Program-made: the position numbers and the translations under genes
Assembly (NCBI GenBank): GCA_046758745.1
Contig: JBHIAV010000012.1
Coordinates: 1 to 64,000, forward strand
Length of the DNA: 64,000 nt
Reading direction: 5' to 3'
Source of the DNA: Gemmatimonadota bacterium
Lineage (GTDB): Bacteria > Gemmatimonadota > Gemmatimonadetes > Palauibacterales > Palauibacteraceae
Part shown: positions 16,280 through 40,277 of the stretch, piece by piece
How positions within the stretch are numbered: the stretch's first letter is position 1
How the letters are laid out: every line of letters begins with the position of its first letter
Notes under the pieces: model-generated
Told to the model about the DNA's origin: nothing
The model's input: only the letters and a program-made list of their open reading frames with translations
Databases searched by the model: none

Positions 16280-16454
16280 GGTCCGATCAGGATCTTCGGG
16301 CGGAGGATCAGCCCCGCTCGGGCTCGGCGCCCCGGTGCTCCGTGGGCCTCCGTGGCCAGCTCGGCAGGAGTCGGCTGAAGGAGGAGGTCACCGGCTCTTC
16401 GTCGGAACGTGTCGGGCGCGCGACGCGTCGCATCGCGGACGCGACGTGCGGCCC

Positions 16455-17627: not shown

Positions 17628-17687
17628 CTTCCCTCTCGACCGAAGTGGCTATGCGGCCCCGAGCTCCCTACCGGACTCCCCACACCC

Positions 17688-18512: not shown

Positions 18513-18519
18513 GGCAGAG

Positions 18520-18906
18520 TCAGTCCGTTACGAGTTCGTATCTGTGCTCGGTTACGGCCAGCGTCAGGCTCTCCAGGGAAGCCCGGAACTCAGAGAAGTC
18601 GAGGTTCTCCAGCTGCAGCGTGTCGGTGAGGACGATCTCGCCGTCCTCCAGTCCGTACGCCCCATGCAGGAGGTCGCTCGCGTTGAGCTCCAGCAGGCGC
18701 TGGAAGAGCCTGAGACGGGCTTCCTCGTCCTCCGGGGCGAGCCGTATCCGAGAACGGAGAACCACCAGGGGCGGCGAATAGCTGACCACGACGCCGGGCT
18801 CCTCTGTGCCTCCCGCCGGACGCACGAGCCAGATCGCGTCGCCGATCTCTTCATGCTCCAGGTCGGTGCGAATCAGGAAGCTCTCGATATCCTCGCGACT
18901 GATCAT
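18520..18906 (-). CDS. YbjN/CesT-like chaperone-fold protein
   Basis: 128 aa, LFQRLLELNASDLLHGAYGL..LENLDFSEF; ATG at 18906 overlaps the upstream stop. Confidence 0.7.
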   Translation of the reverse strand: MISREDIESFLIRTDLEHEEIGDAIWLVRPAGGTEEPGVVVSYSPPLVVLRSRIRLAPEDEEARLRLFQRLLELNASDLLHGAYGLEDGEIVLTDTLQLENLDFSEFRASLESLTLAVTEHRYELVTD

Positions 18907-19172
18907 CGGTCTGTTTCCTCTGTGTTGGCGATCGCTCGGCTCGCCGGCCGCTCCTCCAGCAGGCGAGTCAGAAACTCGTTGTCCTCCCTGAGCTTGTCCA
19001 CCCGGCCGGCCAGGATCTGCACCTGTTCCCGGAGCTCCCGGTATTCCTCCGGCGTGCACGGCGCGGGAGGAAGCGCCTTTCGCTCCGCCGAACTCTCCAG
19101 GTACCGCACCACCGCTCTCCCGAGGGGGAGCAAGAACAGGAACAACAGCAACCACAGGAACGCGCTGGACAT
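18903..19172 (-). CDS. Small membrane-anchored coiled-coil protein (PspB-like architecture)
   Basis: N-terminal TM (FLWLLLFLFLLPL), then LAGRVDKLREDNEFLTRLL; ATGA coupling to the next gene. Confidence 0.65.
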   Translation of the reverse strand: MSSAFLWLLLFLFLLPLGRAVVRYLESSAERKALPPAPCTPEEYRELREQVQILAGRVDKLREDNEFLTRLLEERPASRAIANTEETDR

Positions 19173-19413
19173 CGGACCGTGGACCCCGCTCCGGTCGGGT
19201 GTCGACCGCTCGCATCCGAGTGATACGAGGAACCGGCGGCCCCGGTTTCCGGCGCGGGGCCGCGTCGTGAGGCCCAGCAAGTGTAACGGCGGGCCGGGAG
19301 CGGATCAACGGGGGCCGGGAGCGAAATCAACGGCACGCCGAAAGCGGATCAACGGGGGCCGAAAGCGGATCAACGGGGGGCCGGGAGCGGATCAACGGGG
19401 GGCCGGGAGCGGA

Positions 19414-22299
<2,886 letters not shown>

Positions 22300-22333
22300 A
22301 GCAATATATGCTAGAGGGCGGGGGCCCCTTGGA

Positions 22334-24043
22334 TCAAGCCTCGCGTCCCTCCTCGCTGAGCATCGGCTCGATTCCGTAGCCGGTGAGCTGCCCCCGCTCG
22401 GCACGGTGCGCCATCCGGCGAACGAGCAGGACCTCCAGGCCGGCAGCCCCCACGATCACGAAGAGCACCAGGAGGTAGCTCGAGGCGGACGCCGGCTCCT
22501 TCAGGTACAGATAGTACCAGGAGGAGAGGGCCATCTTGAGGCCCGTCTCGCCGTTGGCCCCGTCCCATACGTGGAAAGCGACGGGAATGAACGCTCCCGG
22601 GCGTAGGTGGACATCACTCGACCCCTGCGGCGCGGTGAGCGGCCTTCGGATGACGAGCCTCCACCGGCCGTCCCGCCACATCGCATCCCCCGTAGCAAGC
22701 GGGCCCTCGGCGGACGCGGGCTGCGGCGGCTCCCTGACGCCACTCCCACGCAACTGCACGAGGGACAGGGGAGCGCTGCGGTCGTTTGCAAGATCCGCCC
22801 GCCAGCGGAGCAGCTCCACCGGCTGGTCCGGGCTCCCGTACACGAAGTGGGGCAGGATGGGGCCACCGTCGTAACGGACGGGAAACAGAATCTCGGCCGC
22901 ATCCGGGTACGTGCCGCGCACGCGGAGGCCTTCCGGATAGAGGATCGGGTAGGTATCGTCGGCGTTCCAGCCCGCCTCCACCGCCGCATCGGAATCCACG
23001 GACGCCGTGTCCGCGAACCTGTCATCCCAGGTCAGCAGAAGCGCGATCTCTTCCGCGTTGTACACCGCCCTGACGGTCAGGTCGGTCACCGCCGGAATCT
23101 GCCAGCGTGGCGCGAAGGTGGCCTGGCCGGTGAGGGGCAGCCACACCTCGGCGGCGGCCTCCCACGCAGGGTCGTCGGGACTCGATGGGAGGTCGCCCTG
23201 CGCGAGCCGCGCGGTGATCACGGCGCCAGCGGCGCGGTCGGTCGCCGGGCCCTCGGCCACAGAGGCGATGTAGTAGGCCAGCTGCCAGCGCTCCTCCTCG
23301 GTGATGGTTTCCGAGTACGATGGCATCGGCGTGCCGTCCAGCCCCGTGCTGAGTCGCATGTAGATGTCCCGCACCGCGAGGCCACCCTTGAACCTCCATC
23401 CGAGGTGGACATCGGCGGGCCACACGGGAAGGTCCCAGTCATCCGTGAGCTCGGCCGCCCGCTCTCCATCGCCTCGCCCCTCGGCGCCGTGGCACTCCCA
23501 GCAGTCGGCCTCATCGAACACGAGGCGTCCCCTGGCGATGAGCGAGTCCCTCCTCCCTCCGGGCGGCGAACCGACCTCCACGACGAATTGGTACGGGTCG
23601 AACGCTTCGTCCTCGAACAGGTCCGCCGCGAAGGTCTTGATGTACGAGATGACCTGCCACCGCTCCTCGGCCGTCAGCACGGACTGCCAGCTCGGCATCG
23701 CCGTCCCCGGAATGCCGAGGGAGATGGTTCGGAAAAGGTCCTCGTCGGTGGGGAGCTCGCCGCTCTCCGTGGTGCGTAGCTTGTAGCTCCCGGCCGTGAA
23801 GTCCCGCGGCCTCGGCCAGAGGTAGACCGCTACGGGGCCGTCGCCGTCGCCCTCCTCTCCGTGACAGAACCAGCACCGCTCCTCGTAGATCCTCCGTCCG
23901 GCCTCCACGGCGGCCGCGTCCGCGGCCGGTCGCGCCGGGACGCTCAGCTCGAGCCACTGGGCCGGGCCGGGAGACGGAGCGATCAGCCAAATCCCCGCAG
24001 CGAGCAGAGGGGAGAGAAGCGCCGAGTGCGGGCCGGTCCTCAC
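22334..24043 (-). CDS. Diheme cytochrome c fused to an ethylbenzene dehydrogenase gamma (EbdC/NxrC)-like domain, C-terminal TM anchor
   Basis: Signal peptide, CWFCH, CWECH, distal MP motifs, then [34 protein letters not shown] and a TM helix; GTGA overlap. Confidence 0.82.
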
Positions 24044-24858
24044 TCTCCTCCACCCTCCGGGATCCGCGGCTCGGTGCCGGCGATGCGGTATTCGGCCATG
24101 ATGATCCGCCACATGTCGTCCTCCTCCAGCTCGTCTCCCCAGGCGGGCATAGCCGAATGCCAAGGGGTGGCGATCCCGGGCAAGCCGATCCCTCCCTGCT
24201 GGATGCGCCAGAACGGATACGCCTCCACGAGGGTCGAGATGGTGCCCGGGTCTGAGAAGTCGACGGGCCGCAGGCGAAGCCCCCTGGCGAGCGGGCCCGA
24301 GCCGTCGGCCTTGGTTCCGTGGCAGGGCCGGCAGTTCTTCTGGTACAGAACGACGCCCTCGAGCTCGGCGGCGGTCCGTGCCTCGGCCGGCAGCCGGCGG
24401 AACGGGTTCTCGACGGCCGCGTACTCTCGGGGCAGGGTGGGGTGCTGGACCCGGAGGGCGGCCGGCGGCTGCATCTGGGGCATCACCCGCTGCCAGGCCA
24501 CCCAGCCCGCCAGCGCCGGAAGAAGCCCCAGCACGAGCAGCTGCGACCTGCGCCTTCCAGCCGGCCGGAGGACGAACAGCCGGACCACGGGACCCAGGAA
24601 GAGCCGCCACCGTCTCTCTTCGCTGCTCAGGTAGACCAGGGCCCCGAACGCCGCGCAGATGAGGTAGATGGCCCGCGCGAAGCCGGGGACGGGCGCAGGT
24701 CGCTCGCCGGCTCCCATCCACACGGTGAGCCACGGCACCAGGAAGCGCAGGGCGAGATACACGGCGAGCAGGACGATCGCGGTCCACAGGAAGACCCTCG
24801 GCTCGCGCGAGTCTTCATGCTCCCCGCCGGCGCCGACCTCTCCTCGTTTCCAGCCCAT
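24040..24858 (-). CDS. Membrane-bound monoheme cytochrome c
   Basis: Three hydrophobic segments, CRPCH, SAMPAW. Confidence 0.85.
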   Translation of the reverse strand: MGWKRGEVGAGGEHEDSREPRVFLWTAIVLLAVYLALRFLVPWLTVWMGAGERPAPVPGFARAIYLICAAFGALVYLSSEERRWRLFLGPVVRLFVLRPAGRRRSQLLVLGLLPALAGWVAWQRVMPQMQPPAALRVQHPTLPREYAAVENPFRRLPAEARTAAELEGVVLYQKNCRPCHGTKADGSGPLARGLRLRPVDFSDPGTISTLVEAYPFWRIQQGGIGLPGIATPWHSAMPAWGDELEEDDMWRIIMAEYRIAGTEPRIPEGGGE

Positions 24859-25885: not shown

Positions 25886-27916
25886 CTAGCCAGGGCTCGC
25901 GGCGCTGGAGATGGCTCCGGCGGGCTCGGCCGCCCGTGCGACCTCCCTCTCCTTCCCGGTGAGACTCGCGAGCCAGAACAGGAAGGCCACGGCGACGAGA
26001 AAGACGAGCGTGATGCTCCCGACCATGCGCGCCATCACCGCGTTGCTCGGGGTGAAGGCCCATTCCGAGGTATCCTGGAGCACTCCGTAGATGTGCCAGT
26101 TCTCGCGCAGGCCGGAGCGAATGAAGCCCATGAGCCCCATGGTCAGGACGATCGTGACGCACAGCGAGATGAGCGCGTACTGGGAGCGGGCGGTCACCTC
26201 TCCCCACCGGATGGCACCGATGCTTCGCGCGCCCCGGAAGAGCAACACATCGATCGCCGTGATGAGGATCAGGGCCGTCATGAGAATGAGCCACTGGGCC
26301 ACGGCGATCTGGCGGAGGAACGGGTTCGCCTCGGTCATCACGATGAAGCCGTATACGCCCAGCACACCCACCGACTCGATCGCCACGACCGTGAAGTAGA
26401 TGATCTGGGCCAGGTGTCCCCGGTCGCGCAGCGAGAGGCCCACGCAGCCCACCACCGCCAGCATCGTCGCGACGAGCAGGAACGCCGGCAGCCGAAAGTA
26501 GACCGCCTTCTCCGGCGCGAGGTCCAGCGTCTCGGGCGCGAGGGTGAAGAGCACCCTGGCGTACCACCCGAGGATGAGGAGGCACAGCGCACCGGCGGCC
26601 AGGAGAACGGCCTTGGCTCCTCGCCCCTGCCGCGAGAGCGGCCGGAGATCGGTCTTGTTCGCCCGGCGATACACCAGAAAGCTCGCGAAGGTGGTGAGGA
26701 TGATGAAGTTGATCACGGCGTTCTTCGCGGACATCAGGCCGAGGTAGCCGAGGAGCGGATGGACCTGTCCCCCGAGGGCCAGCTGCTCCTCCGCGCTCAA
26801 CGGGATGTTCCGCGGCGTGAGCCATATGGCGACGCAGACGACCAGGATGGCGTTGAAGTACTTGACGAACTTCTGATAGCGCTCCGCCCCCGGGATCCGA
26901 CCCATCCCGGACCACAGGTAGTAGTTTCCGACGATGAAGATGAGCCCGACGAGCATCGCCTGCATGATGAAGGTCCACGAGAAGGCGCCCCCCATCATGT
27001 TGTTCCCCATGATGGGGCTGGCGCTGTAGATCTCGCGGCCCAGGTAGTACCCGGCGAACGGCAGCGGGATGAGCGCAGAGAGCCCGACGAAGTTGCCTAC
27101 ATAGCCCATCCAATCGTAGTGCGCCCGCTCCTCGGACGTTCGTGCGGACAGGAGCCTCACGGCCGCGTACGCGCCCACCACGAATCCCCCGAAAGCCACG
27201 TTTCCCAGGATTCGGTGGATGTTCAGCGGCATCCACAGGGGGTTGGCGACCGCCTCCATTGTGGTCCCGACGAACGCTCCGCTCTCGTCGACTCCGACCG
27301 GGCTCATCATGTACGTTGCCCACGCATTCCCGAGGAAGACGAGGGCGGTACCCGACACATTGAGCAGCACGCCGAGCGACAGGTGGAGCCCCTTACGCCG
27401 GCGAAGCCGCTCCCACGAGTTGTAGTAGAGATAGAGGAGAGCCGTCTCCACGAAGAAGAACCCCGCGTAGACGTACATCGAGGGCGCGAAGATGCGGACG
27501 AAGTAGCTGGCGAATCGCGGGTAGAGTCCGAAGAGGGTAAACGCCAGCAGCCCTCCGAGGGCGGCGGTGGTGGCAAAAGCGGCGGCGAGAAGCTTGGTGA
27601 ATTCGTGGGCGAGCCGGTCGTAGCGGATGTCCCCCGTGCGCCACCCGATGAACTCCACGATTACAGCGAAGATCGGCACGCCCAGGACGAAGGCGGCGAA
27701 GAGGAGATGCAGCTGGGCGACGAACCACACCACCCTCCTCGGACTCAGCCCGAAGAAGTCGCGGACTTCATCGGCCGCCGCGAGGGGATCGGCCTGAGCC
27801 GCCCAGAGCGCTTCGGGCGCGAGCAGCCAGAAGCCGACGAAGGTCGCGACGGCGACGGCGGGGGGGATCCATCCGCCCCCTGCTCGCCGAACGGGACGCC
27901 AGCGACTGCCGCTCAC
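25886..27916 (-). CDS. Cytochrome bd subunit I (CydA)-like oxidoreductase, Nitrospira-type bd-like family
   Basis: Helix I QLHLLFAAFVLG, ATYMMSP, PLNIHRILGN, C-terminal MGFIRSGLRENWHIYG in place of EYGRQPW; many TM helices; no cydB nearby. Confidence 0.85.
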   Translation of the reverse strand: MSGSRWRPVRRAGGGWIPPAVAVATFVGFWLLAPEALWAAQADPLAAADEVRDFFGLSPRRVVWFVAQLHLLFAAFVLGVPIFAVIVEFIGWRTGDIRYDRLAHEFTKLLAAAFATTAALGGLLAFTLFGLYPRFASYFVRIFAPSMYVYAGFFFVETALLYLYYNSWERLRRRKGLHLSLGVLLNVSGTALVFLGNAWATYMMSPVGVDESGAFVGTTMEAVANPLWMPLNIHRILGNVAFGGFVVGAYAAVRLLSARTSEERAHYDWMGYVGNFVGLSALIPLPFAGYYLGREIYSASPIMGNNMMGGAFSWTFIMQAMLVGLIFIVGNYYLWSGMGRIPGAERYQKFVKYFNAILVVCVAIWLTPRNIPLSAEEQLALGGQVHPLLGYLGLMSAKNAVINFIILTTFASFLVYRRANKTDLRPLSRQGRGAKAVLLAAGALCLLILGWYARVLFTLAPETLDLAPEKAVYFRLPAFLLVATMLAVVGCVGLSLRDRGHLAQIIYFTVVAIESVGVLGVYGFIVMTEANPFLRQIAVAQWLILMTALILITAIDVLLFRGARSIGAIRWGEVTARSQYALISLCVTIVLTMGLMGFIRSGLRENWHIYGVLQDTSEWAFTPSNAVMARMVGSITLVFLVAVAFLFWLASLTGKEREVARAAEPAGAISSAASPG

Positions 27917-27925
27917 GGCCGTCGG

Positions 27926-28747
27926 TCAGCCCTTGCTCATCTCAAGACTGACGCTGGTCGTCTCTCCCGAGGTTACTGTCACCGTGTGGCTGCTCGCTCC
28001 GAGCGCCTCGTGCCATGCCTCCAAGGTGTACGTGCCCGGCGGCACGTCCTCGATCACGAAGTTTCCATCGCGGTCGGTCAGCGCATGGTAGGGATGGTCG
28101 ATGACGACGATCCAGGCACCCATCCAGTCGTGAACATCACACCCCACCTTCACCTTCTCCGGAACGCGGAAGGTAACGTCGATCTTGCGCACACCGGGCG
28201 GCTGGGCCCGATTCAGCGGACGGTTCTCGAAGGTGAGCGTGTGAACGTTGTGCATGATCGGGTCGCTGTTCAGGACCTCGACCGTCGCTCCGGCGGGAGC
28301 GAACAGCACATGAGGCCGGAAACCGCACTCTCTCTGGTCGAGAACGGGAGGCGATGTGGGCATCTCCAGAGCCGCGCCGCTGGCAATGTCCACCAGCGAG
28401 ACAACGGCGTCCGCCAGCCCTTTGTTCCCGCCAACCCGCAGCGTCTCCACCTGACGAAGGCCTCCGCAGGTCTCCGCGTCCTCCGTCACCGTGATCGTCT
28501 GCGGGGCCGGCACCGCCCCGACGAAGCGGACGGTTCCGCGGATGGTTCCACCGTTCGTCACCTCGACCACGGTGTAGCTAGATGCGCTCTCGACGCCGGG
28601 CTCGGGCGTGGACGCTTCCTCGAGCGGCGCCGTCTCTGCGGCGGTCTCCCGGGCGTCGCCGGCTGCGCCCCCGCACGCTCCCACGGCGAGGGCAAGGGCG
28701 GCGAGGAGACCCGCACCTTCTATACCTTCTATCCAATTCCGTCTCAT
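27926..28747 (-). CDS. Lipoprotein with cupredoxin-like and carboxypeptidase-regulatory-like domains
   Basis: Lipobox VGAC; NSDPIMHNVH..GCDVHDWM; VPPGTYTLEAWHE. Confidence 0.8.
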   Translation of the reverse strand: MRRNWIEGIEGAGLLAALALAVGACGGAAGDARETAAETAPLEEASTPEPGVESASSYTVVEVTNGGTIRGTVRFVGAVPAPQTITVTEDAETCGGLRQVETLRVGGNKGLADAVVSLVDIASGAALEMPTSPPVLDQRECGFRPHVLFAPAGATVEVLNSDPIMHNVHTLTFENRPLNRAQPPGVRKIDVTFRVPEKVKVGCDVHDWMGAWIVVIDHPYHALTDRDGNFVIEDVPPGTYTLEAWHEALGASSHTVTVTSGETTSVSLEMSKG

Positions 28748-29481
28748 CTTCCCCCCTCGGCGGTGGATGTGGCCGCCGCCGGCGCAAGAGTGAACTCGAC
28801 CGTCGTCGCGGCGTTCGGACGCACCGTCACCTCCAGCTCCTGCTCCCCGAGGACCTCGTGCCACGCCTTCAGAGTGTAGGTGCCGGGTGGGACGCCTTCG
28901 ATCTCGAAGGCTCCGGATTCGGCGCTCACGGCAAAGTAGGGATGGTCGAAGATCAGGATCTTGGCGTGCATCCACGAGTGCGCGTCGCACGAGACGTCGA
29001 TGACCCCCGCCCGACGGAGCGGCCGGTCGGCGGTGACCTTGGATCCCTGGCTCGACAGCGCCCAGTTTCCGACCGTTCGGGTTCGCCCGTTTCGCTCGAG
29101 GTTCAGGTGCGTATTGTGGAGGACCTCGTCCCGATTGTCGATGATGAGCTTGCCGCCGACCGCAGCGGCCAGAACCGGCGGATCGAAGCTGCACCCGGAA
29201 TTCGACAGGCGGAACTCCTGCGGCGGGACCTCTCCCTCCAGCCCTTCGACGAAGACGACGGCGTAGGCGACCCGTCCGTCCTTTATCACCACATCCCGCG
29301 CCTGAATCGTCTCGCCACAGAACTCCCGGTTCTTCGTGACCTTGAGCAGGCGTGGCGCCGGGGCGGTCCCTTCGATCCGGACCGTGCCCTGGATCGTGCC
29401 GGTCTGGGCCACTCCCCCCGGCGGCATGACCATCAGGGCCGCCAGCGCGGCCGAGACGCCGAATCCGTATCTCAACAGCAC
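28744..29481 (-). CDS. Periplasmic paralog with cupredoxin-like and carboxypeptidase-regulatory-like domains
   Basis: GTG with GGAGGAG RBS; NRDEVLHNTH..SCDAHSWM; VPPGTYTLKAWHE. Confidence 0.8.
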   Translation of the reverse strand: MLLRYGFGVSAALAALMVMPPGGVAQTGTIQGTVRIEGTAPAPRLLKVTKNREFCGETIQARDVVIKDGRVAYAVVFVEGLEGEVPPQEFRLSNSGCSFDPPVLAAAVGGKLIIDNRDEVLHNTHLNLERNGRTRTVGNWALSSQGSKVTADRPLRRAGVIDVSCDAHSWMHAKILIFDHPYFAVSAESGAFEIEGVPPGTYTLKAWHEVLGEQELEVTVRPNAATTVEFTLAPAAATSTAEGGR

Positions 29482-29542
29482 GCTCTCCTCCTTTCCAAGT
29501 CGCCGCGGACTACCGGCGGACCGGCCGTCCGTGGCCAGACGA

Positions 29543-30634
29543 TCAGAAGTACACATGCATCTCCAGACTCACCCGATCGAGGTCGGTCGTGGCCTGCGGT
29601 ATGTCTTCGAGCAGCGTGTAGAAGGCCGATAGCTGCAGAAACTGGATCGGGAAGGTTTCGAGACCGAACCGCAATCGAATGCGCGCGTTCTCCCCGATGC
29701 TCCGGTTCGGATCCAGGAAGCCGTAGGTGGCCTTCACGTTGAGACCGGGCACGGCCAGAAAATCCCCTTCCAGGAAGGCGGCGAACTGTCTCAGCTGGGA
29801 ACCGGATTCGGGCGTGTCGAAGATGTAGTCGAACTCGCCCAGGAATGTGAACCGGCCCAGGTTGAATCCGCCGAACGCACCCACCACCTCCCGCTTGCTG
29901 CTCGGCCCCTCGTTCGTCGACGCCGAAGCCCCGACCCTGAACCTGCGGAGGATGAGGGCCGTGGTGGCGGTGACCTGCTTGTCGCTGTTGTTCTCGCCCG
30001 CCCCCTGGGTGCCGTTCGTCACCGAGAGGAACAGCGAGAGGGGCCCGGGCTCGATCCCCACCTCGACCCCCAGGTCCGGCGTGTTGTAGTTGAATCCCGT
30101 GCGCTCGCGGATGAACTCCGAGTCATCCACCAGACGGAGCCCGTACGGCAGAAGGAACTTGCCCGCCTTCACGTAGCCGTCGAGCGGCAGGCCCTCGACG
30201 ATGCCGAAGGCCTCCCGAGTGCTGGCGCTCCCCGGCCCGAAGAGCTGATCGACGTAGAAGGCGAGCACATCCGGAACCACGCGCGCCTCGAGCTGGACGC
30301 TCTCCTCCACGACTTGGATGGAGCTGCGCGGGCTGGTCTCGGTCACCGTGCCCGAGGCGAGGACCCGGAAGTTGCCTCCCACCGAGAGGAAGTCGTTCAG
30401 GGACCGGTTGAGGAACTTGAACTTCACAAAGGGAAGGCGTGTCTGGGCGTACACGCTCCCGAAATCCGTCCGTCCCCCCCCGCCCGTCCGGTTCACGTGA
30501 CACTGAGAGCAGCGCAGACCGGTGCGCACGGAGAGATACGGCTCCTCCTCCCCCGCGCGCAGGCCGTGCGGCACGACGGCGAGGAGACAAATCGCCACGC
30601 CGATCGAGACGCAGCCGCTCCCTGACCGGGTCAT
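29543..30634 (-). CDS. Monoheme cytochrome c / outer-membrane beta-barrel fusion
   Basis: Signal peptide, EPYLSVRTGLRCSQCHVN, amphipathic beta strands, YVKAGKFLLPYG, terminal LEMHVYF. Confidence 0.78.
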   Translation of the reverse strand: MTRSGSGCVSIGVAICLLAVVPHGLRAGEEEPYLSVRTGLRCSQCHVNRTGGGGRTDFGSVYAQTRLPFVKFKFLNRSLNDFLSVGGNFRVLASGTVTETSPRSSIQVVEESVQLEARVVPDVLAFYVDQLFGPGSASTREAFGIVEGLPLDGYVKAGKFLLPYGLRLVDDSEFIRERTGFNYNTPDLGVEVGIEPGPLSLFLSVTNGTQGAGENNSDKQVTATTALILRRFRVGASASTNEGPSSKREVVGAFGGFNLGRFTFLGEFDYIFDTPESGSQLRQFAAFLEGDFLAVPGLNVKATYGFLDPNRSIGENARIRLRFGLETFPIQFLQLSAFYTLLEDIPQATTDLDRVSLEMHVYF

Positions 30635-30654
30635 CGGCTTCCTCCGTATTCGTG

Positions 30655-31098
30655 TTAGTTGTCCTGGGCGCCCTCGGCGATCCATTCCCGGATGGCGGAG
30701 ATCTGATCCTCCGAGAGCGGCGAGAGTCCGAGCGGCATTCGGCCGCCCACGATGCCCTGACGCCCCTCGATCTTCCACACGATGTAGCTGGAGTCCGGCA
30801 CTCCGGGATCGACGCGCAGCAGTTCCGGAATCTCGATGCTGGCTACCCCCACGAGGTTCCCCCGCGAGACTCCCGCATCGAGCGCCAGCCCCAGCGGAGC
30901 CGCGGCGCCCGTGTGGCAGCGCGTGCAGATCGCGCTGAAGACGTTGTCCTGGATCGAGCTCAACGTCGGAGCCAGCTGTAGGCCGGGCGGTCCCAGCGGG
31001 TTGCCGAACTCGTCCAAGCCCGTCCCGTCGCCCGCGCAGCCCGAAGAAAAGGCGATGGCCAGGACGGCCAGTGCGGCAACGTGCCGCTGACCGATCAT
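30655..31098 (-). CDS. Monoheme cytochrome c lipoprotein
   Basis: Lipobox SSGC, CTRCH, GRMPLG, IREWIAEGA; ATGA overlap. Confidence 0.82.
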   Translation of the reverse strand: MIGQRHVAALAVLAIAFSSGCAGDGTGLDEFGNPLGPPGLQLAPTLSSIQDNVFSAICTRCHTGAAAPLGLALDAGVSRGNLVGVASIEIPELLRVDPGVPDSSYIVWKIEGRQGIVGGRMPLGLSPLSEDQISAIREWIAEGAQDN

Positions 31099-32075
31099 CG
31101 TTCCCCTCCTTCCCCGGCCATCTCGGGATTCTCCCCGAACAGCCAGTAGAACGCCCCCTTGGGCCGATTGAGGGAGCGCACGTAGTAGACCAGCGCCCAC
31201 AGGCGGCGCTGCACGAGCTCCTCCAATGCGGCTTCGGGCATCGCCTCGAGCTCGGCCGCCGTGGGCTGGCCAGCCAGATAAGCCTCGAGCTCCGGCAGGC
31301 TCTCGGCATCGACGGCTTCGCGCACCGGCCCCACGTCGACCTTCGCCCCGCCCGGGAAGGCCACGATGTCGCGCTCGAAGGCCGGCATCGGCGTGCCGTT
31401 CAGGCCGGTGACGAGCGTGCGGTAGAGGTCCGAGGGCGCGGATCCGTTCTTGTAACCGCCACGCGTGAAGTCGTACGGCTTGATCCTCTCGCCCCAGTCG
31501 TCCGTCAGCTCGGCCGCGGACGGACCGTCGCCCCGGCCCAGAGAGCCATGGCAGTCCCAGCATTTGAGCATGACGTACACGAAGCGGCCTTCCCGAAGGA
31601 GCTCCGGTGACGGCCCGGGCTCGGGCGGGATCTCGACAGCCGGATCCGGCTCCTCCTCGGCAAAGAACTCGGAGAACCCTTTGATGTAGCGGACGAGCGC
31701 CCAGCGCTGCGCCGGGCTCAGCAGATCTTCCCAGGCCGGCATCCAGGTGCCGGGCACCCCGCGGGAGATCGTGCGGTACATGTCCTCGTCGGCAGGGAGG
31801 GAACCGGTCGGCGTGCGGCGAAACTTGAATGTCCCGGAGGTGAAATCCCGTGGTTTCGGGGCGCCGAGCAACCGCGACCCGCGACCGTTCCCGTCGCCCA
31901 GCCGGCCGTGGCACGGAGCGCAGGCTCCGGCGTACAGTCTGGCCGCGTCGCCCGTCGAAGGGTCCTGCGGTCCGGGAGCGGGCGCCTGCGCCAGACCGGG
32001 CACCGCGCGGAGGAAGAGAGCGGCCGCCACGAGCCCCACCCCGCGTACGCCTCGCCGGTAGCCTGCCCGGTTCAT
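31095..32075 (-). CDS. Periplasmic diheme cytochrome c
   Basis: Signal peptide, CAPCH..GTWMP, CWDCH..GTPMP; ATGA overlap. Confidence 0.87.
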   Translation of the reverse strand: MNRAGYRRGVRGVGLVAAALFLRAVPGLAQAPAPGPQDPSTGDAARLYAGACAPCHGRLGDGNGRGSRLLGAPKPRDFTSGTFKFRRTPTGSLPADEDMYRTISRGVPGTWMPAWEDLLSPAQRWALVRYIKGFSEFFAEEEPDPAVEIPPEPGPSPELLREGRFVYVMLKCWDCHGSLGRGDGPSAAELTDDWGERIKPYDFTRGGYKNGSAPSDLYRTLVTGLNGTPMPAFERDIVAFPGGAKVDVGPVREAVDAESLPELEAYLAGQPTAAELEAMPEAALEELVQRRLWALVYYVRSLNRPKGAFYWLFGENPEMAGEGGER

Positions 32076-32893
32076 GGCGCGCCTCCCTCTGCGCTGGCCG
32101 GTGGGCCGCGCCACTGGAGGGTGATGTTCGGAACCATGTTGTCCTGGCCGCCGGTGACGATGATGTCGGTCAGGAACGACTCGAAGACATCGGTTTTTCT
32201 GTCCACCACCAGCACCAGACGGAACGTGGCATCGGGGATGCGCACGGGAACCGTGAAGCGGCCCAGCACATCGCTGTCGACCGCGAAGTTCACGCCGCTC
32301 GGCGGAAGGGGCGGGATGAAGTCCCGACCGCCGGCGATCTCATACGGCGTGAAGTTGCCGGTTCCGTCATCCCGCATCACCCAGATATCCACGACTGCCG
32401 GCGCGCCGTTCGGGTCCATGATGTGCCCCGTGATCAGCGTGCTGGAGAGATACAGGTCCGCTTCGACGGCGCCGCCATCGAGCTCGAAGGCCTTGCTCGT
32501 TGTGAGGAACGGGGCCGACGCCGACGCCCGCAGGAGGATGACAGGCTCGGTGAGCACGGCTTCAAAGGCTCCCGAGAAGCGGCCTTCCGAATCCGTCTCC
32601 AGGATGTTGTCCACGTCGATGGGCACGGGCGTCCGTCCATCCGCTGCGAACACGGCCACCTGACCTGACACCCCGTTCCCGTCCAGGTTCCGCCCATCCA
32701 GCAGTCGGCCGCTGAGGTCGATGCTGAAGCGCGTCCCCACCGGCTCGAAGACCGTGCCCTGGTCGCACGACGCCATGATGAGCCCCGCGGCCAGCAGAAC
32801 CGCCGCACGGCCGGACGGCGGGGCCCATGGGGGCCGCCGTCCGGCTCTCCGTGCGCTCCTCCGAGCCGCCGAGCCACGCGAGCGAGACTTCAT
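32072..32893 (-). CDS. Hypothetical beta-rich lipoprotein
   Basis: Lipobox-like IMASC, GGAGGT RBS, coupled to the next gene. Confidence 0.65.
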   Translation of the reverse strand: MKSRSRGSAARRSARRAGRRPPWAPPSGRAAVLLAAGLIMASCDQGTVFEPVGTRFSIDLSGRLLDGRNLDGNGVSGQVAVFAADGRTPVPIDVDNILETDSEGRFSGAFEAVLTEPVILLRASASAPFLTTSKAFELDGGAVEADLYLSSTLITGHIMDPNGAPAVVDIWVMRDDGTGNFTPYEIAGGRDFIPPLPPSGVNFAVDSDVLGRFTVPVRIPDATFRLVLVVDRKTDVFESFLTDIIVTGGQDNMVPNITLQWRGPPASAEGGAP

Positions 32894-32941: not shown

Positions 32942-33922
32942 TCAGGGACTCACGGTGATCGTCCCCCTCATGCCCAGGTCGGCATGGCCCGGGATCGTGC
33001 ACAGGACCTCGAAGCTTCCCGCTTCGGTAGGCACCATGAACAGCTCCGAATCGCCTCCGATCTGGAGCTCGATCGCCTTCAGGTAAGGCGCCTTGATCTC
33101 GGCCTGTGAGTCCTCGGCCTTCCGGAACACCACGGTCTTGTAGAACTCGGCCGCCGTGTAGTAGTGCTTCGAGGCGTGCCCGCCCGGATTCGTGATGTGG
33201 ATCTTGTACGCGACGTCCTTGGTCAGCTGGAGATCCGGCGGTACGAAACCGAGCTGGTCGAAGGAGGCCGACTCGAACATGCTGATCGGCGCCTCCACCG
33301 CGCTCGTCCACACATCGTGCGAGCCCGAGCGTCGTGGATCGGTGGTGAGAGACTGGTCGAAGTCCGGGGCGACCTCCAGGTCCAACTGATAGCCCTCCCC
33401 GCCGGTGATCGTGGCGGTGGCCGTCATCCCGAGCTCCTTGTGGCCCGGAATGATGCAGATGATGTCGTACGTGCCGGCCAGCACCGGGACGACGAAGATC
33501 TCCAGGGAGCCGCCGATCTGGAGCTCGACCTCATTGAAGAACGGAGCTTTGTACTCGGCCTCGTCGGTCTCGATCTTCCGCGTGGCGACCGCCTGATAGA
33601 AGCTCGCTCCCTCCGGCGAGAAGTAGTGCTTGCTGCTGTTCGAAGCCGGGTTGGTGATGCGGATGATATACGGCTTGCCCGCCTCGAACGTCAGCTCGTT
33701 CGGCGAAAAAGCCAGGGCCGTGGGGGTCTCCACCATGCTGACCTCTACGGTTTGGGCCTCGTCCCAGTTCACGAAGTCGACCCAATCCGAGGCCAGCGTC
33801 GGGGTCTGGGGTGGAGGCGGCGGGGGCCCGGTAACCTCCCCACCGTCGCAGCCCCACACCGTCAGGGCCAGCAGCGCGGTGAGGCCCAGCCCCAGGCTGC
33901 TCTTCTTGGCTCGCGTCTCCAT
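32942..33922 (-). CDS. Tandem di-cupredoxin (blue copper) lipoprotein
   Basis: Lipobox VWGC; two repeats each with KHY.. and C-x-IPGH-xxx-GM (CIIPGHKELGM, CTIPGHADLGM). Confidence 0.88.
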   Translation of the reverse strand: METRAKKSSLGLGLTALLALTVWGCDGGEVTGPPPPPPQTPTLASDWVDFVNWDEAQTVEVSMVETPTALAFSPNELTFEAGKPYIIRITNPASNSSKHYFSPEGASFYQAVATRKIETDEAEYKAPFFNEVELQIGGSLEIFVVPVLAGTYDIICIIPGHKELGMTATATITGGEGYQLDLEVAPDFDQSLTTDPRRSGSHDVWTSAVEAPISMFESASFDQLGFVPPDLQLTKDVAYKIHITNPGGHASKHYYTAAEFYKTVVFRKAEDSQAEIKAPYLKAIELQIGGDSELFMVPTEAGSFEVLCTIPGHADLGMRGTITVSP

Positions 33923-34316: not shown

Positions 34317-35759
34317 CTAGAAGGCGAAATCCAGGCGGAACCAGAGGTTCTGCGGCCTCGGATCGTTCAGCTGGGTGCTGGCCTCGTGCTCCGTGAAGAG
34401 CTCCGCCTCGATGACGCCGCGGATGTTCTGACGCACCAGGAAGATGATGCCCGGTAGGATCCGCCTCTGATCGGCTCCTCCCTGCGTGAAGCCGGCGTCG
34501 AGGAGGGCAGCCGGCACGTCCGCATCGAAGGTATCAAACTTGAGGGATCCGATGAGCCACGGGAAGATCAGGTATTCCGCCTTTCCGAAGAAGCTCGAGT
34601 ACGGAACCTCGCCGGACGCGCTCGCTCCCCACGGATTGTCGTTCTCGCCCCATACGTACCCGACGCCGATATCCGCCGGCCCGTAGAGGACCCGGGCGCT
34701 GATGCCGAAGGACCGGTGGTCGTCCTGGCGGTCGCCGTCCACGGGCTGAGCGCCGAAGTAGCCGAAGTGCTCTATGGTGAGCGAGCGGTCCAGGAGCTGA
34801 CCGCCCCCGCCCTGGACGGGCCCGCCGCCCGGCCCGTACCGCCCATCCAGGCCCAGGCCGCCGATCTTGTAGCGGACCTTGTAGAACACATCCTTGTGGT
34901 TGTTGTTGTCGGTAGTGAGGTCGCCCACGCCCTGGGCCAGGCCGAAGCCGTAGTACAGCCGCCCCCCGATGATTCCGTTCAGCTCGAGGGCCGGCTGTGT
35001 CTGGCGCAACCGGAACTCGTTCGTCGAACGGAGGGAGTCGCCCGTGTCCGGGCGCCTCAACTCGAGATCCGAAATCCGATACGTCTGCCACAGGAAGTTC
35101 TGGCGTCCGGCGCGATCGATCTGCCGGTCCGCGAACGTGAACAGGTAGATGTTCTGCATGCCGACCCACAGGTTCAGCCACCGCGAGGGAAGCCGTGGCA
35201 GGAGGTCCTGGAACTCGATCTTGGCCTGCAGGACCTCGAGGTCCCGTTCCCGGCTCCACTCGGTCTCCAGGAACACGGAGATGTCGTCACCGAGGGTGGC
35301 GGCCGCGAGCAGGTAGATCTCCTGCGGAAAGCGGAAGCTCCAGGTGAACGCCGAACCGGCCTCGCGCGTCAGCTGGACATCGTTCTGTACACGGAGCGCG
35401 AGCGGCACGACACCCGGGATTTCGCCCGGCCAGATCGCACGGGGCCACAGATCCTTCCATGGCTCGCCGCCGAGCGGGACAGGGCGATCCTTTCGGAAGA
35501 GCTTGTCGTTCTCGGGGAAGCGATACCCGTTGAGTCGGAATGCCTCGCCGAACACGTTCAGCTTGGGCGCCGCCGTGTGGCAGGTCGAGCAGCTGGTCCG
35601 GTATTTCCTGGCGAAGGCGGGGATCTCTCCCACCGCCAGCTCGGAGGAGAGGGGAATCGCGCCGCTCGATACCAGCGCACTGAACAGGGCGAGGGCGGCC
35701 ACGATCAGAGACGCCGGGGCGAATCTCGGCTTCGGGCTACATCCGGATCGCTGCGTCAT
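34317..35759 (-). CDS. Cyc2-like fused monoheme cytochrome-porin
   Basis: Signal peptide, IPAFARKYRTSCSTCHTAAPKLNVFGEAFRLNGY, beta-barrel-like body, terminal FRLDFAF. Confidence 0.8.
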   Translation of the reverse strand: MTQRSGCSPKPRFAPASLIVAALALFSALVSSGAIPLSSELAVGEIPAFARKYRTSCSTCHTAAPKLNVFGEAFRLNGYRFPENDKLFRKDRPVPLGGEPWKDLWPRAIWPGEIPGVVPLALRVQNDVQLTREAGSAFTWSFRFPQEIYLLAAATLGDDISVFLETEWSRERDLEVLQAKIEFQDLLPRLPSRWLNLWVGMQNIYLFTFADRQIDRAGRQNFLWQTYRISDLELRRPDTGDSLRSTNEFRLRQTQPALELNGIIGGRLYYGFGLAQGVGDLTTDNNNHKDVFYKVRYKIGGLGLDGRYGPGGGPVQGGGGQLLDRSLTIEHFGYFGAQPVDGDRQDDHRSFGISARVLYGPADIGVGYVWGENDNPWGASASGEVPYSSFFGKAEYLIFPWLIGSLKFDTFDADVPAALLDAGFTQGGADQRRILPGIIFLVRQNIRGVIEAELFTEHEASTQLNDPRPQNLWFRLDFAF

Positions 35760-35790: not shown

Positions 35791-36396
35791 CTACCGCCCG
35801 CTGCGGGGAAGACGCAGCGTCAGGTGCAGTGACTCGCCCTCGTGAACGACGATGTCTCTCCGGAACGGTCGGGTGGCCTGGTGCCACACGTTGACGGCGT
35901 ATCTTCCGGCCGGCACGTTGTCGATCCGGAATCGCCCCTCTCCGTCCGCTACAGCGCGGTAGGGTGTGTCTACGACCACGACCCAGGCCACCATCTCGGG
36001 GTGCACGTGGCAGAGTATGACATGCGCTCCGACCTCCCTGAACAGGTGCAACCTGGACTCGTGTCGCGGATATGTCCCGAGGTTGAACCCGACTCCCGGA
36101 TCCTTCGGAGAGAACACGTTGTGCAGTATGGGGTCGCTGTTTCGGAACTCGACGGCCGTTCCGGGAAGGACGGCCAACACCGGGGGCACGAAGCGGAGGT
36201 TGGCCTGATCGATGACCGGTGTGTCCCGGGCCGACGGGTTGGCAGCCTCCGCCTCGGGTAGGAGATACACGACGGCACCGACGCTTCGCACATCCGACGC
36301 GTCTACGGTTCCGCTTACCGTGGCGAACTGAGAGGCCGCTGGCGCGGTACACCCGAGCGAGGCTACGACCCAGGCCAGCGAGAGACCCGGCTTCAT
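35791..36396 (-). CDS. Exported protein with cupredoxin-like and carboxypeptidase-regulatory-like domains
   Basis: FRNSDPILHNVFS..LCHVHPEM; VPAGRY; ATGA overlap with the regulator stop. Confidence 0.8.
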   Translation of the reverse strand: MKPGLSLAWVVASLGCTAPAASQFATVSGTVDASDVRSVGAVVYLLPEAEAANPSARDTPVIDQANLRFVPPVLAVLPGTAVEFRNSDPILHNVFSPKDPGVGFNLGTYPRHESRLHLFREVGAHVILCHVHPEMVAWVVVVDTPYRAVADGEGRFRIDNVPAGRYAVNVWHQATRPFRRDIVVHEGESLHLTLRLPRSGR

Positions 36397-37793
36397 CTCC
36401 AGCCGCTTCCCGCGGACCCGTTGTCCAGCTCGGCGATCCACCGGTGGAGCGTCCGCCGGCTGACTCGCGCCGCACGGGCGGCCTTCGAGACGTTGCCGCC
36501 GCTCGCTTGCAGCAGTCGCCTCACATACCTGGCCCGAAAGGCCTGGAGAGCCCGGGCACGGGCTCCTTCATAGGGCAGCAGCTGTTCCGAGTCGGAGGGC
36601 TCGTTCGACAGGCTGGTCCACGGCCGAAGTGGCTCCGGCAAGTCCGAAAGGGTGACGCGCTGGTCCTCATCGAGGATCACCAGCCGCTCGGCAAGGTTCC
36701 TCAACTCTCGCACGTTGCCCGGCCAATGGTACCGCTGGAGGGCATCCCACACGTCGGGTGAGACGCGGGGGGGCTCTCTGTCCTGTGCGGCGGAGAATTG
36801 CGCGAGGAAGCTCTGCGCGAGCAGCACGATGTCGTCGCCACGGTCCCGCAGCGGCGGGACGTGCAACGGTACCACGTTGAGGCGATAGTACAGGTCCTCG
36901 CGAAACCTGCCCTCCGCGACCGCAGCTTCGAGGTCCATGTTGGTGGCGGATACGATCCGAATGTCTACATCGATCAGTTGTGATCCTCCGAGCCGGCGAA
37001 CCTGTCGTTCCTCGAGGGTCCGCAGGAACTTCGACTGGAGCCCCAGGCTCATCTCGGGGAACTCATCGAGGAAAACGGTTCCGCCGTTCGCCTCCTCGAG
37101 CAGGCCCTTCTTGCGCGCGTCGGCGCCGGTGAAGGCCCCGCGCTCGTGGCCAAACAGCTCGCTTTCCAGGAGGCCCTCCGGTAGGGCCGCACAATCCACC
37201 GGCAGGAACGGGCCGTCCTTTCGGGGGCTCCGAGCATGGATGAAGCGCGCGATGAGCTCTTTGCCTGTCCCGCTCTCGCCAAAGATCAGCACGTTGGCAT
37301 CGGTGGGCGCCACCTTTCTCGCCTGCTCCATGAGCTTCACCATCGGCGGACTCGAGCCGACGATCTCCTCCCGACCCGCACCGCGCGCCACCTGCTGGCG
37401 TAGCGCCTGGTTCTCGAGAGCCAATGCCCGGTGTCGAGCCGCTCGTTCGATCGCGATGAGGAGTGCGTCCGCCCGGAACGGCTTGGTCAGGTAATCGAAC
37501 GCTCCCTCCCTGATCGCGTGCACCGCCGAGGGGACGGTTGCGTACGCCGTCATGATCACGACCGGGAGCGCCGGGTCATCGGCCTGTGCGACGGTGAGCA
37601 GAGTCATGCCGTCCACATCCGGCATGCGAAGGTCCAGAAGCAAGACGTCGGGGCGCACTTCTTCCAGGATCTCCCGGAATCGGGATGGATCCGAGAGCGT
37701 CCAGCAGGCGTAGCCCTCCCGCGAGAGCAGCCGCTCGCAGTTCTCGAGCATGTCCGGCTCGTCGTCGACGATGAGCACGCGACCCCTCTCCAC
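36393..37793 (-). CDS. Sigma54-dependent NtrC/AtoC-family response regulator
   Basis: REC domain (VDDE, DLRMP), GESGTGKE, GAFTGA, WPGNVREL, Fis-type HTH; GTG with AGGAGG RBS. Confidence 0.95.
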   Translation of the reverse strand: MERGRVLIVDDEPDMLENCERLLSREGYACWTLSDPSRFREILEEVRPDVLLLDLRMPDVDGMTLLTVAQADDPALPVVIMTAYATVPSAVHAIREGAFDYLTKPFRADALLIAIERAARHRALALENQALRQQVARGAGREEIVGSSPPMVKLMEQARKVAPTDANVLIFGESGTGKELIARFIHARSPRKDGPFLPVDCAALPEGLLESELFGHERGAFTGADARKKGLLEEANGGTVFLDEFPEMSLGLQSKFLRTLEERQVRRLGGSQLIDVDIRIVSATNMDLEAAVAEGRFREDLYYRLNVVPLHVPPLRDRGDDIVLLAQSFLAQFSAAQDREPPRVSPDVWDALQRYHWPGNVRELRNLAERLVILDEDQRVTLSDLPEPLRPWTSLSNEPSDSEQLLPYEGARARALQAFRARYVRRLLQASGGNVSKAARAARVSRRTLHRWIAELDNGSAGSGWR

Positions 37794-37801
37794 GCCCCCT
37801 C

Positions 37802-40087: not shown

Positions 40088-40277
40088 CGGCGCACGCCGG
40101 ACGGGTTCCTGGTCCACTCTCCGGAGTTGCGGCGCTCCGACCTGCGAGGGACGGACGCACTGCGAGCCTCCTCCGTACCGGCCATATTAAGTTATGTGGT
40201 CGCAGCCGGGCTCGCCTGTCGGGAAGACCCGGCAAGAACTTGTCGGGAGATCTCCCTCGCCGAGGTGAGCGAAGGTG

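What the first reader, a model, noticed from the sequence alone, without database searches (positions are those of the whole stretch)
25886..27916. Orphan CydA-like enzyme without CydB, with an altered active-site motif
It keeps His residues matching E. coli CydA H19 (QLHLLF) and H186 (NIHRIL). The canonical E445/GRQPW segment reads FIRSGLRENWH, no quinol-binding Q-loop motif is recognisable, and extra His/Met-bearing segments are present (NNMMGG, QVHPLLG..LMSAKN). Three cytochrome c genes follow instead of cydB. This fits the cytochrome c-fed bd-like (OR-N-type) proteins of Nitrospirota, whose chemistry (O2, NO or other) is unresolved.
Basis: partly seen in the sequence, partly recalled or inferred. 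Interest (0 to 1): 0.75.

Follow-up and report, generated by a model that had tools for sequence, protein, structure and literature searches.

The report
Anammox-type bd-like respiratory haem module
This gene encodes a member of an already described but never purified family of cytochrome bd-like membrane haem proteins, here in an operon of cytochromes, blue-copper proteins and outer-membrane cytochrome-porins, and its gene neighbours suggest it may relay electrons rather than reduce oxygen itself.

Summary
The 676-aa ORF has the CydA fold and keeps H19, H126, H186 and E107, but E99 is Tyr, E445 is Ser and K252/E257 are Met. Trees place it with anammox (Scalindua) bd-like proteins in the 14-helix OR-N1/N2 group, away from quinol oxidases. 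The genome's only cydB lies beside a canonical cydA. It is the core of the known kustd1709-1713 / TO_1 module; the next gene is a full-length Kustd1711 homologue. The scan found this family before on other DNA.

Not found in my paper searches: (1) this module ends an operon with a Cyc2-motif cytochrome-porin and five blue-copper motifs; (2) a paralogous module lies 6-7 kb upstream of one heme-copper oxidase in 36 of 36 tested carriers, and that oxidase occurs in 0 of 30 non-carriers; (3) a family-conserved His is Arg in 108 of 120 nearest homologues.

Best guess: an electron relay between high-potential periplasmic carriers and the membrane (0.45). Rival: cytochrome c-fed O2 reductase (0.35). 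No biochemical test exists.

The parts
25886..27916 (-). bd-like (OR-N1/N2 group, anammox kustd1712-type subclade) membrane haem-b protein, 676 aa; N-terminal signal-like helix plus 15 predicted membrane helices
24871..25851 (-). dihaem cytochrome c, full-length homologue of Kuenenia Kustd1711 (about +350 mV in that organism)
   Evidence: 7ZS0, E 4.5e-66, residues 6-325
24040..24858 (-). membrane-anchored monohaem cytochrome c (position of kustd1710)
   Evidence: gene order
22334..24043 (-). dihaem cytochrome c fused to EB_dh haem-b domain with C-terminal membrane anchor (alt_NxrC / kustd1709-like)
27926..28747 (-). cupredoxin-like lipoprotein candidate with type-1 copper motif (CDVHDWM) and carboxypeptidase-regulatory-like domain; position of blue-copper kustd1713
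   Evidence: a homologue lies upstream of the bd-like gene in most loci; copper role inferred from motif
28744..29556 (-). second cupredoxin-like protein (CDAHSWM)
29543..30556 (-). porin-like protein with one N-terminal CxxCH (second cytochrome-porin candidate; lacks the PXFAR motif; start approximate)
30655..31095 (-). small monohaem cytochrome c, usually paired with that porin
31095..32075 (-). dihaem cytochrome c (47% identical to the dihaem part of the EB_dh fusion; start approximate)
32072..32893 (-). lipoprotein-like ORF of no known family; no match in related loci
32942..33922 (-). double cupredoxin, rusticyanin/auracyanin-like, two type-1 copper motifs
   Evidence: (TIGR03095 below cut-off)
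34317..35759 (-). Cyc2-motif outer-membrane cytochrome-porin (PAFARKY, CSTCH, PKL; 480 aa)
   Evidence: Cyc2 cluster not determined
35791..36441 (-). cupredoxin-like protein (CHVHPEM) directly ahead of the Cyc2-motif porin in 9 of 9 close-orthologue loci
36393..40117 (-). sigma-54 response regulator and dCache/HAMP/PAS histidine kinase, probable regulators of the operon (inferred from position)

Best explanation
Identity (about 0.95): the membrane subunit of the conserved cupredoxin / bd-like / dihaem c / monohaem c / cytochrome c-EB_dh module known from anammox (kustd1709-1713), Nitrospira and Manganitrophus (TO_1). Mechanism (the confidence given): not a terminal O2 reductase but a haem-b electron relay that joins high-potential periplasmic carriers (about +350 mV cytochromes c, blue-copper proteins) to the membrane quinone pool, working like a complex III. 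It would run downhill towards a heme-copper oxidase in the paralogous operon, and here exchange electrons with an outer-membrane cytochrome-porin chain. Shown: fold, residues, phylogeny, gene order, co-inheritance. Inferred: haem binding at H70 and H234/M395, complex formation with the cytochromes, a new quinone site, and the direction of flow.
For: Two acidic residues of the canonical O2 site are replaced throughout the N1/N2 rows: E99->Tyr and E445->Ser. The nearest labelled clade is from anaerobic anammox bacteria (100/99); two Scalindua genomes each gave 5 PF01654 matches, all weak bd-like and none canonical. The paralogous module of this genome lies 6.1-7.2 kb upstream of an A1-type heme-copper oxidase (GHPEVY) on the same strand in 36 of 36 tested carriers; 0 of 30 non-carriers have that oxidase above 54% identity. 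That is the slot alternative complex III genes often take ahead of an oxygen reductase (PMC12342949 passage). This genome already has 4 heme-copper oxidases and cydAB. A His conserved in Nitrospira-type, Scalindua and most paralogue rows (position 369, one of three periplasmic His that might bind a metal) is Arg in 108 of 120 nearest homologues. Lucker 2013 proposed an alternative-complex-III role (PMC3578206 passage).
Against: The canonical quinol residues K252/E257 are Met, so a new quinone site must be assumed and none was found. H19, H126 and E107 of the O2/proton core are kept. ActC of alternative complex III is present in 66 of 66 genomes tested, carriers or not, so the module does not replace complex III. 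This subclade does not track the metabolisms that need reverse electron flow: NXR in 1 of the 5 holders in the 301-genome sample and 1 of 5 extended-operon genomes; RuBisCO in 1 of 5 and 0 of 5. Ca. Nitromaricola is aerobic with no other known terminal oxidase (PMC13768755), and OR-N1/N2 rows share the same Tyr/Ser changes, so these changes need not abolish O2 reduction. The 36 linked genomes come from three families and are not independent, and the linkage concerns the paralogue, not this gene.
Confidence: 0.45

Rival explanations
1. Cytochrome c/cupredoxin-fed O2 reductase (first reader; Murali et al.). The dihaem +350 mV cytochrome and monohaem c feed the H234/M395 haem, and O2 is reduced at the H70 haem with protons through E157. 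In this operon it would end a Cyc2 -> cupredoxin -> cytochrome c chain, in the place that the aa3 oxidase takes in the Acidithiobacillus rus operon (recalled).
For: Four-helix core with H19, H126, E107 kept. Superfamily proposed to share the O2 site (bioRxiv 2021.01.16.426971). Donors of about +350 mV can drive O2 reduction. Aerobic nitrite oxidisers lacking other oxidases keep the gene. A conserved Tyr150 and His369/386/608 could form a rebuilt site.
Against: E99 and E445 lost. Multiple copies in anaerobic Scalindua. The paralogue is co-operonic with a true heme-copper oxidase in 36 of 36 genomes. His369 is Arg in this subclade. Five other terminal oxidases are in this genome. No member has been assayed.
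Confidence: 0.35
2. Dedicated membrane partner of the genome's periplasmic NXR/NAR-like enzyme, as proposed for anammox and Nitrospira.
For: The genome has an anammox-type NxrA (1644 bits to 7B04 over full length) with nxrB, chaperone and NxrC-like gene. The module is part of the nxr cluster in Kuenenia and follows it in transcription.
Against: NXR is on another contig with its own NxrC-like gene. NXR occurs in 2 of 301 phylum genomes, and the other NXR holder has no bd-like match. It was not found in 4 of 5 holders of this subclade or in 4 of 5 extended-operon genomes (completeness of those five not given).
Confidence: 0.08
3. NO or other N-oxide reductase fed by cytochrome c.
For: Altered active site. 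The genome has clade II NosZ and a nitrite/nitrate oxidoreductase.
Against: kustd1712 was down-regulated 5.2-fold when NO was the only acceptor (PMC6423088 Table 1; transcript data only, the protein was not detected). No N-oxide genes were seen in the operon.
Confidence: 0.07
4. One half of a CydAA'-type heterodimer with the genome's second bd-like protein on contig C5.
For: OR-N1 plus OR-N2 heterodimers are proposed for Nitrospirales and Nitrospinota. All 4 other holders of this subclade in the sample also have the C5-type gene, and tandem modules occur.
Against: Both copies fall on the same (N2-like) side of the tree, apart from the bd-like_1 clade. Each has its own full cytochrome set. 81 of 86 positive genomes showed only the C5-type gene at E <= 1e-30.
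Confidence: 0.05

Closest known systems
Kuenenia kustd1712 and the kustd1709-1713 half of the anammox nxr cluster
   Same: Same gene order (blue-copper, cydA-like, dihaem, monohaem, dihaem). The neighbour is a full-length Kustd1711 homologue. 58% identity to Scalindua rubra and Scalinduaceae copies, same clade (100/99), same four-helix insertion (Met-to-Arg spacing 205).
   Different: Kustd1712 itself was not in hand; Scalindua copies stood in. No nxr genes adjoin here. Upstream lie cytochrome-porins, extra cupredoxins and a sigma-54 system. His369 is Arg.
OR-N1/OR-N2 subfamilies of the cytochrome bd superfamily (Murali, Gennis, Hemp; bioRxiv 10.1101/2021.01.16.426971); Nitrospira bd-like_2/3/4; Manganitrophus TO_1
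   Same: No quinol site, no cydB, many helices, flanked by two cytochromes c and a periplasmic haem-b protein. Groups with context-defined Nitrospira-type bd-like_2/3/4 (98/95). Same Tyr, Met/Met and Ser changes.
   Different: Two more helices than the 14-helix form (spacing 205 vs 132). His369->Arg. Host is a Gemmatimonadota-like genome, judged from the names of nearest homologues.
Canonical quinol-oxidising CydAB (qOR; E. coli bd-I, Geobacillus bd)
   Same: Fold (Z 32-35, about 350 residues, rmsd 3.3-3.9 A); H19, H126, H186, E107, R448, W451.
   Different: K252, E257, E99 and E445 replaced. Q-loop replaced by a membrane hairpin and a His-bearing loop. No cydB. Separate clade (100/100).
Cyc2 cytochrome-porin iron-oxidation pathways (for the upstream genes)
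   Same: PXFAR[QK][TY] + CXXCH + PXL motif, more than 365 aa, porin-like. Followed by rusticyanin-like cupredoxin and cytochromes c.
   Different: Cluster not determined, and the function of divergent Cyc2 homologues is uncertain. The same cassette heads other multihaem or cupredoxin arrays in other genomes. A bd-like module, not a heme-copper oxidase, closes the operon.

Membership tests
qOR (canonical CydA) | Quinol-binding Lys252/Glu257 | tested here: not met
   M303/M308 in those columns; 10 of 10 qOR rows have K/E
qOR (canonical CydA) | Cognate cydB | tested here: not met
   The one PF02322 match lies beside the canonical cydA on C57; genome 87% complete
qOR (canonical CydA) | Falls in the qOR clade | tested here: not met
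   qOR rows form their own clade, 100/100
cytochrome bd superfamily | CydA fold with His19 ligand in the first four helices | tested here: met
   H70; PF01654 above cut-off; VIA Z 32-35 to CydA chains
cytochrome bd superfamily | Proton-channel glutamates E99 and E107 | tested here: not met
   E107 kept (E157), E99 is Tyr150 in 120 of 120 homologues; the same holds for all N1/N2-type rows
cytochrome bd superfamily | b558 ligands H186/M393 | tested here: inconclusive
   H186=H234 clear. M395 inferred from model topology and spacing in the shortest relatives; MAFFT put M393 on L543 and hhalign of the C-terminal parts found no alignment
OR-C | CxxCH motifs within CydA | tested here: not met
   No CxxCH in the 676 aa
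OR-N1/N2 | No quinol site; about 14 membrane helices; operon with alternative electron carriers | tested here: met
   15 membrane helices plus a signal-like helix in the model, two more than 14-helix relatives; cytochrome c and cupredoxin neighbours
OR-N1/N2 | Phylogenetic placement with Nitrospira/anammox bd-like proteins | tested here: met
   98/98 for the N1/N2-type group, 98/95 with bd-like_2/3/4, 100/99 with Scalindua. Labels were assigned by me from gene context in unnamed Nitrospirota genomes
OR-N2 specifically | Score against the published subfamily HMMs | not testable with these tools
   HMMs are in supplements not available. The N2 label rests on joining passages of PMC6606698 and PMC12342949; PMC5029188 describes the NIDE0901-like protein differently
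OR-N (as oxygen reductases) | O2 reduction with cytochrome c as donor | not testable with these tools
   Stated as not biochemically characterised within Nitrospinaceae in PMC13768755 and uncharacterised in PMC10839748
Cyc2 (upstream gene 34317-35759) | PXFAR[QK][TY] before CXXCH, PXL after, at least 365 aa, porin domain | tested here: met
   PAFARKY-RTS-CSTCH-TAA-PKL, 480 aa; weak porin match. My pattern (also allowing R) matched 10 of 14 orthologue loci, which include the window's own and one genome counted twice
Cyc2 (upstream gene 34317-35759) | Placement in a cluster with shown Fe(II) oxidase activity | not tested
   No reference Cyc2 sequences were in hand

The most novel reading that the evidence does not exclude
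OR-N2 modules are a third architecture of complex III: a CydA-derived quinol:cytochrome c/cupredoxin oxidoreductase. It would run forward into a dedicated heme-copper oxidase in many Gemmatimonadota and backward in nitrite oxidisers and anammox. In this vent bacterium, which also has RuBisCO and NXR, it would be wired through blue-copper proteins to a Cyc2-type outer-membrane conduit, giving a whole mineral-to-quinone path in one operon.
Probability: 0.2. Interest if true: 0.8.

Novelty: new member of a known kind. Interest (0 to 1): 0.42.

Why it matters
bd-like proteins are the assumed terminal oxidases of Nitrospira, marine Nitrospinaceae and Mn-oxidising Manganitrophus, yet the papers read here report no assay. 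Whether they reduce O2 or only move electrons affects models of nitrite oxidation and anammox energetics. Gemmatimonadota offer two natural contrasts in one genome: a copy tied to a true heme-copper oxidase and a copy tied to cytochrome-porins, differing at a candidate metal-binding His. They also lack NXR in most cases, which separates the module from nitrite chemistry. The gene itself is a known unknown, not a new enzyme class.

Tried and rejected
Co-occurrence with NXR: rejected. Co-occurrence with RuBisCO: rejected. Replacement of complex III: rejected, ActC in 66 of 66. ATP-citrate lyase search was uninformative because no control rang. Complex prediction of the bd-like protein with the membrane cytochrome was not available, so binding is untested and haem or metal geometry could not be measured (the fold tool gives no coordinates). 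Single-sequence fold of the cupredoxin failed (pLDDT 39), and PDB sequence search gave no cupredoxin match. Profile alignment of the C-terminal halves gave nothing. The first 94-row tree did not finish; one search used 70 rows and one search used 31. The structural match to ActC/PsrC (Z 16-20) was not used as evidence because canonical CydA was not tested for the same match. No RNA holder listed; the DNA holders are one hydrothermal-vent study, two of them the possible source. My sigma-54 pattern found no site in the two stretches scanned. Supplement searches did not give N1/N2 assignments. PMC12442345 had no relevant passage.

Full report
Observation. The ORF at 25886-27916 (minus, 676 aa) and all quoted motifs are present. 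Pfam recognises only its N-terminal half as CydA (residues 65-301, E 6e-24), and PDB sequence hits are bd oxidases over the same part. An AlphaFold2 model from an 86-row alignment is confident (pLDDT 91.7, pTM 0.89) and aligns to CydA chains over about 350 residues between positions 52 and 658 (Z 32-35). So the whole CydA fold is there, with insertions. The model has a signal-like first helix and 15 further membrane helices.

Residues. Against E. coli CydA fetched from RefSeq in a 64-row alignment (70 tree rows minus 6 long-branch or divergent rows): H19=H70, H126=H178, H186=H234, E107=E157, R448=R604 and W451=W607 are kept; E99=Y150, K252=M303, E257=M308, and E445 corresponds to S601 (or G602). 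The roles of K252, E257, E99, E107 and H19 are from the Murali preprint; those of H186, M393, E445 and H126 are recalled. The NNMMGG segment is therefore the rewritten quinol helix. M395 of MSAK probably stands for M393: it begins the helix that follows the periplasmic loop, and in the shortest relatives it lies 61 residues before the first Arg of the E445 helix motif, against 55 from M393 to R448. This is inference; MAFFT and hhalign did not confirm it. Relatives differ by helix pairs at this place: spacing 61 (bd-like_1 type), 132 (Nitrospira bd-like_3 type and the C5 paralogue), 205 (this protein and Scalindua). Three periplasmic His (369, 386, 608) are conserved in Nitrospira-type bd-like_2/3/4 and Scalindua rows, but position 369 is Arg in this protein and in 108 of its 120 nearest homologues; 2 of 7 C5-type rows also lack that His.

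Family. The best 120 homologues are 60-86% identical; where named they are Gemmatimonadota, Rokubacteria, NC10, Chloroflexi and TA06. Named genome loci add Nitrospirae, Scalindua and others. For reference I fetched CydA-family genes from unnamed Nitrospirota genomes and labelled them by context following Mundinger 2019 and Kop 2025. IQ-TREE (31 rows, 374 columns) puts the query with Scalindua copies (100/99), inside a group with bd-like_2/3/4 and the C5 paralogue (98/95), sister to bd-like_1 (98/98), apart from OR-N5 and qOR (100/100). FastTree on 70 rows agrees. Both trees warn of long-branch joins among outer groups. No OR-C, N3 or N4 references were identified. The genome (87% complete) has one cydB, beside a canonical cydA on C57.

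The module. Downstream lie a full-length homologue of Kuenenia Kustd1711 (E 4.5e-66), which has two haems near +350 mV (PMC11791136), a membrane monohaem cytochrome, and a dihaem c/EB_dh fusion; upstream lies a cupredoxin-motif protein. This is the order of kustd1713-1709 and the make-up of Manganitrophus TO_1. All three cytochromes follow in order in 32 of 43 related loci; 3 lack the first one at that place, and 8 are incomplete, mostly at contig ends. The Ca-binding of Kustd1711 uses main-chain carbonyls, so the high potential cannot be read from this sequence. Earlier notes of this scan reached the same family call on other genomes (8 shown of 36 windows).

The operon. Fifteen co-oriented genes run from a histidine kinase (40117) to 22334; 13 of 14 gaps are under 100 nt and one is 394 nt (some starts approximate). 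They carry 10 CxxCH motifs and five C-x-H-x-M copper motifs. The 480-aa gene at 34317-35759 meets the published screening criteria for Cyc2. Close orthologues occur in 9 of 301 phylum genomes: 3 of the 5 that hold this bd-like subclade and 6 of the other 296. In all 9 it follows kinase, regulator and cupredoxin. All 5 genomes picked for having the longer operon also have it, 3 of them next to the module; one of these appears to be the same genome as G060. Elsewhere the cassette heads multihaem cytochrome or cupredoxin arrays, so it looks like a modular extracellular electron-transfer front end. Iron oxidation is not shown: the Cyc2 cluster is unknown. The DNA is held by runs of one hydrothermal-vent study, which may be its source.

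The paralogue. A second copy on C5 (54% identical) heads a module followed by a cupredoxin, coxB, coxA, coxC, coxD and ctaB. 86 of 301 phylum genomes have a bd-like match, and all but 5 showed only this type (the unpublished G182 is one of the 86). I tested 36 of the 85 other carriers and 30 of the 215 non-carriers, chosen by hand from listed handles. All 36 have the orthologous CoxI (66-81% identity) 6.1-7.2 kb downstream on the same strand; the best CoxI in the 30 non-carriers is at most 54%. The carriers come from three families, so this may reflect few events. One Nitrospirota locus also joins cox genes to a bd-like gene (L133). ActC is in all 66.

Mechanism. A module that is inherited with a true oxygen reductase, is multiplied in anaerobic anammox bacteria and has lost E99 and E445 is most simply an electron relay upstream of oxidases, linking high-potential carriers with the membrane. 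Lucker 2013 suggested this. Against it: no quinone site is identified; alternative complex III is present anyway; this subclade does not track NXR or RuBisCO, though this genome has both; and aerobic Nitromaricola has no other known oxidase. In this operon the module also sits where an oxidase would end a Cyc2 chain. I give the relay 0.45, O2 reductase 0.35, NXR partner 0.08, NO reductase 0.07 and heterodimer 0.05.

Literature seen. Murali preprint: parts 1-4 of 6; supplement closed, journal version not held; its tables may already list Gemmatimonadota. PMC11791136: parts 1-2 of 7 and passages. Passages only: bioRxiv 2021.11.15.468770, PMC6606698, PMC3578206, PMC6423088, PMC11897245, PMC10839748, PMC12342949, bioRxiv 228056, PMC5029188, PMC10579370, PMC13768755, PMC13189123; PMC12442345 searched, no passage. 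Supplements of PMC10839748 and PMC12342949 were searched for N1/N2 labels only. Lucker 2010, the rus operon and the type-1 copper motif are recalled. Searches for a prior report of the context: 3 papers with two of bd-like, OR-N, Gemmatimonadota; none with Gemmatimonadota; 0 papers; listing only, not read; 0 notes. Most subscription papers are not covered.

Verdict. The added value is contextual: linkage to a heme-copper oxidase in the paralogue, to cytochrome-porins here, and a His-to-Arg change that gives a natural comparison. Interest 0.42.

Noticed in passing
G000:C53 (L096:273-7597): Periplasmic anammox/Nitrospira-type nitrite oxidoreductase cluster (NxrA 1644 bits to 7B04, nxrB, chaperone, dihaem c/haem-b NxrC-like gene); found in only 2 of 301 phylum genomes.
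   Followed up: partly
G000:C20 (L194:289-17771): RuBisCO large subunit with transketolase next to formaldehyde-activating enzyme, formylmethanofuran dehydrogenase A and a PQQ alcohol dehydrogenase: a possible methylotrophic autotroph among Gemmatimonadota.
   Followed up: partly
G000:C5 (L009:4866-19142): Paralogous bd-like module co-operonic with an A1-type heme-copper oxidase, ctaB, a NirJ2/AhbD-like radical SAM gene and a USP-like gene; linkage kept in 36 of 36 tested carriers.
   Followed up: yes
L061:7284-9800, L062:9944-12388, L063:7819-10239, L069:11126-13774: bd-like copies in which the match to the query falls into two stretches and the following dihaem cytochrome is missing; possibly a long insertion or split form.
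   Followed up: no
L118 and L120 (Scalindua genomes G303, G304): bd-like reading frames of about 800 aa that include two CxxCH motifs, apparently fused to the following cytochrome.
   Followed up: no
window 29543-31095: Monohaem cytochrome plus CxxCH-porin pair of no Pfam family; the porin is in 26 of 301 phylum genomes, 19 of them bd-like carriers, and lies about 9-11 kb upstream of the C5-type module in G039 and G127.
   Followed up: partly
G000:C36 (about 27600-29800) and C15: A second Cyc2-motif gene (PSFARRY..CSTCH) with cupredoxin and dihaem c genes on C36; clade II NosZ next to a ba3-like oxidase on C15.
   Followed up: no
window 15200-22404: Unrelated flank: uvrA-like, PspA-like and AI-2E-like genes by my reading of the translations (names recalled, not searched).
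   Followed up: no
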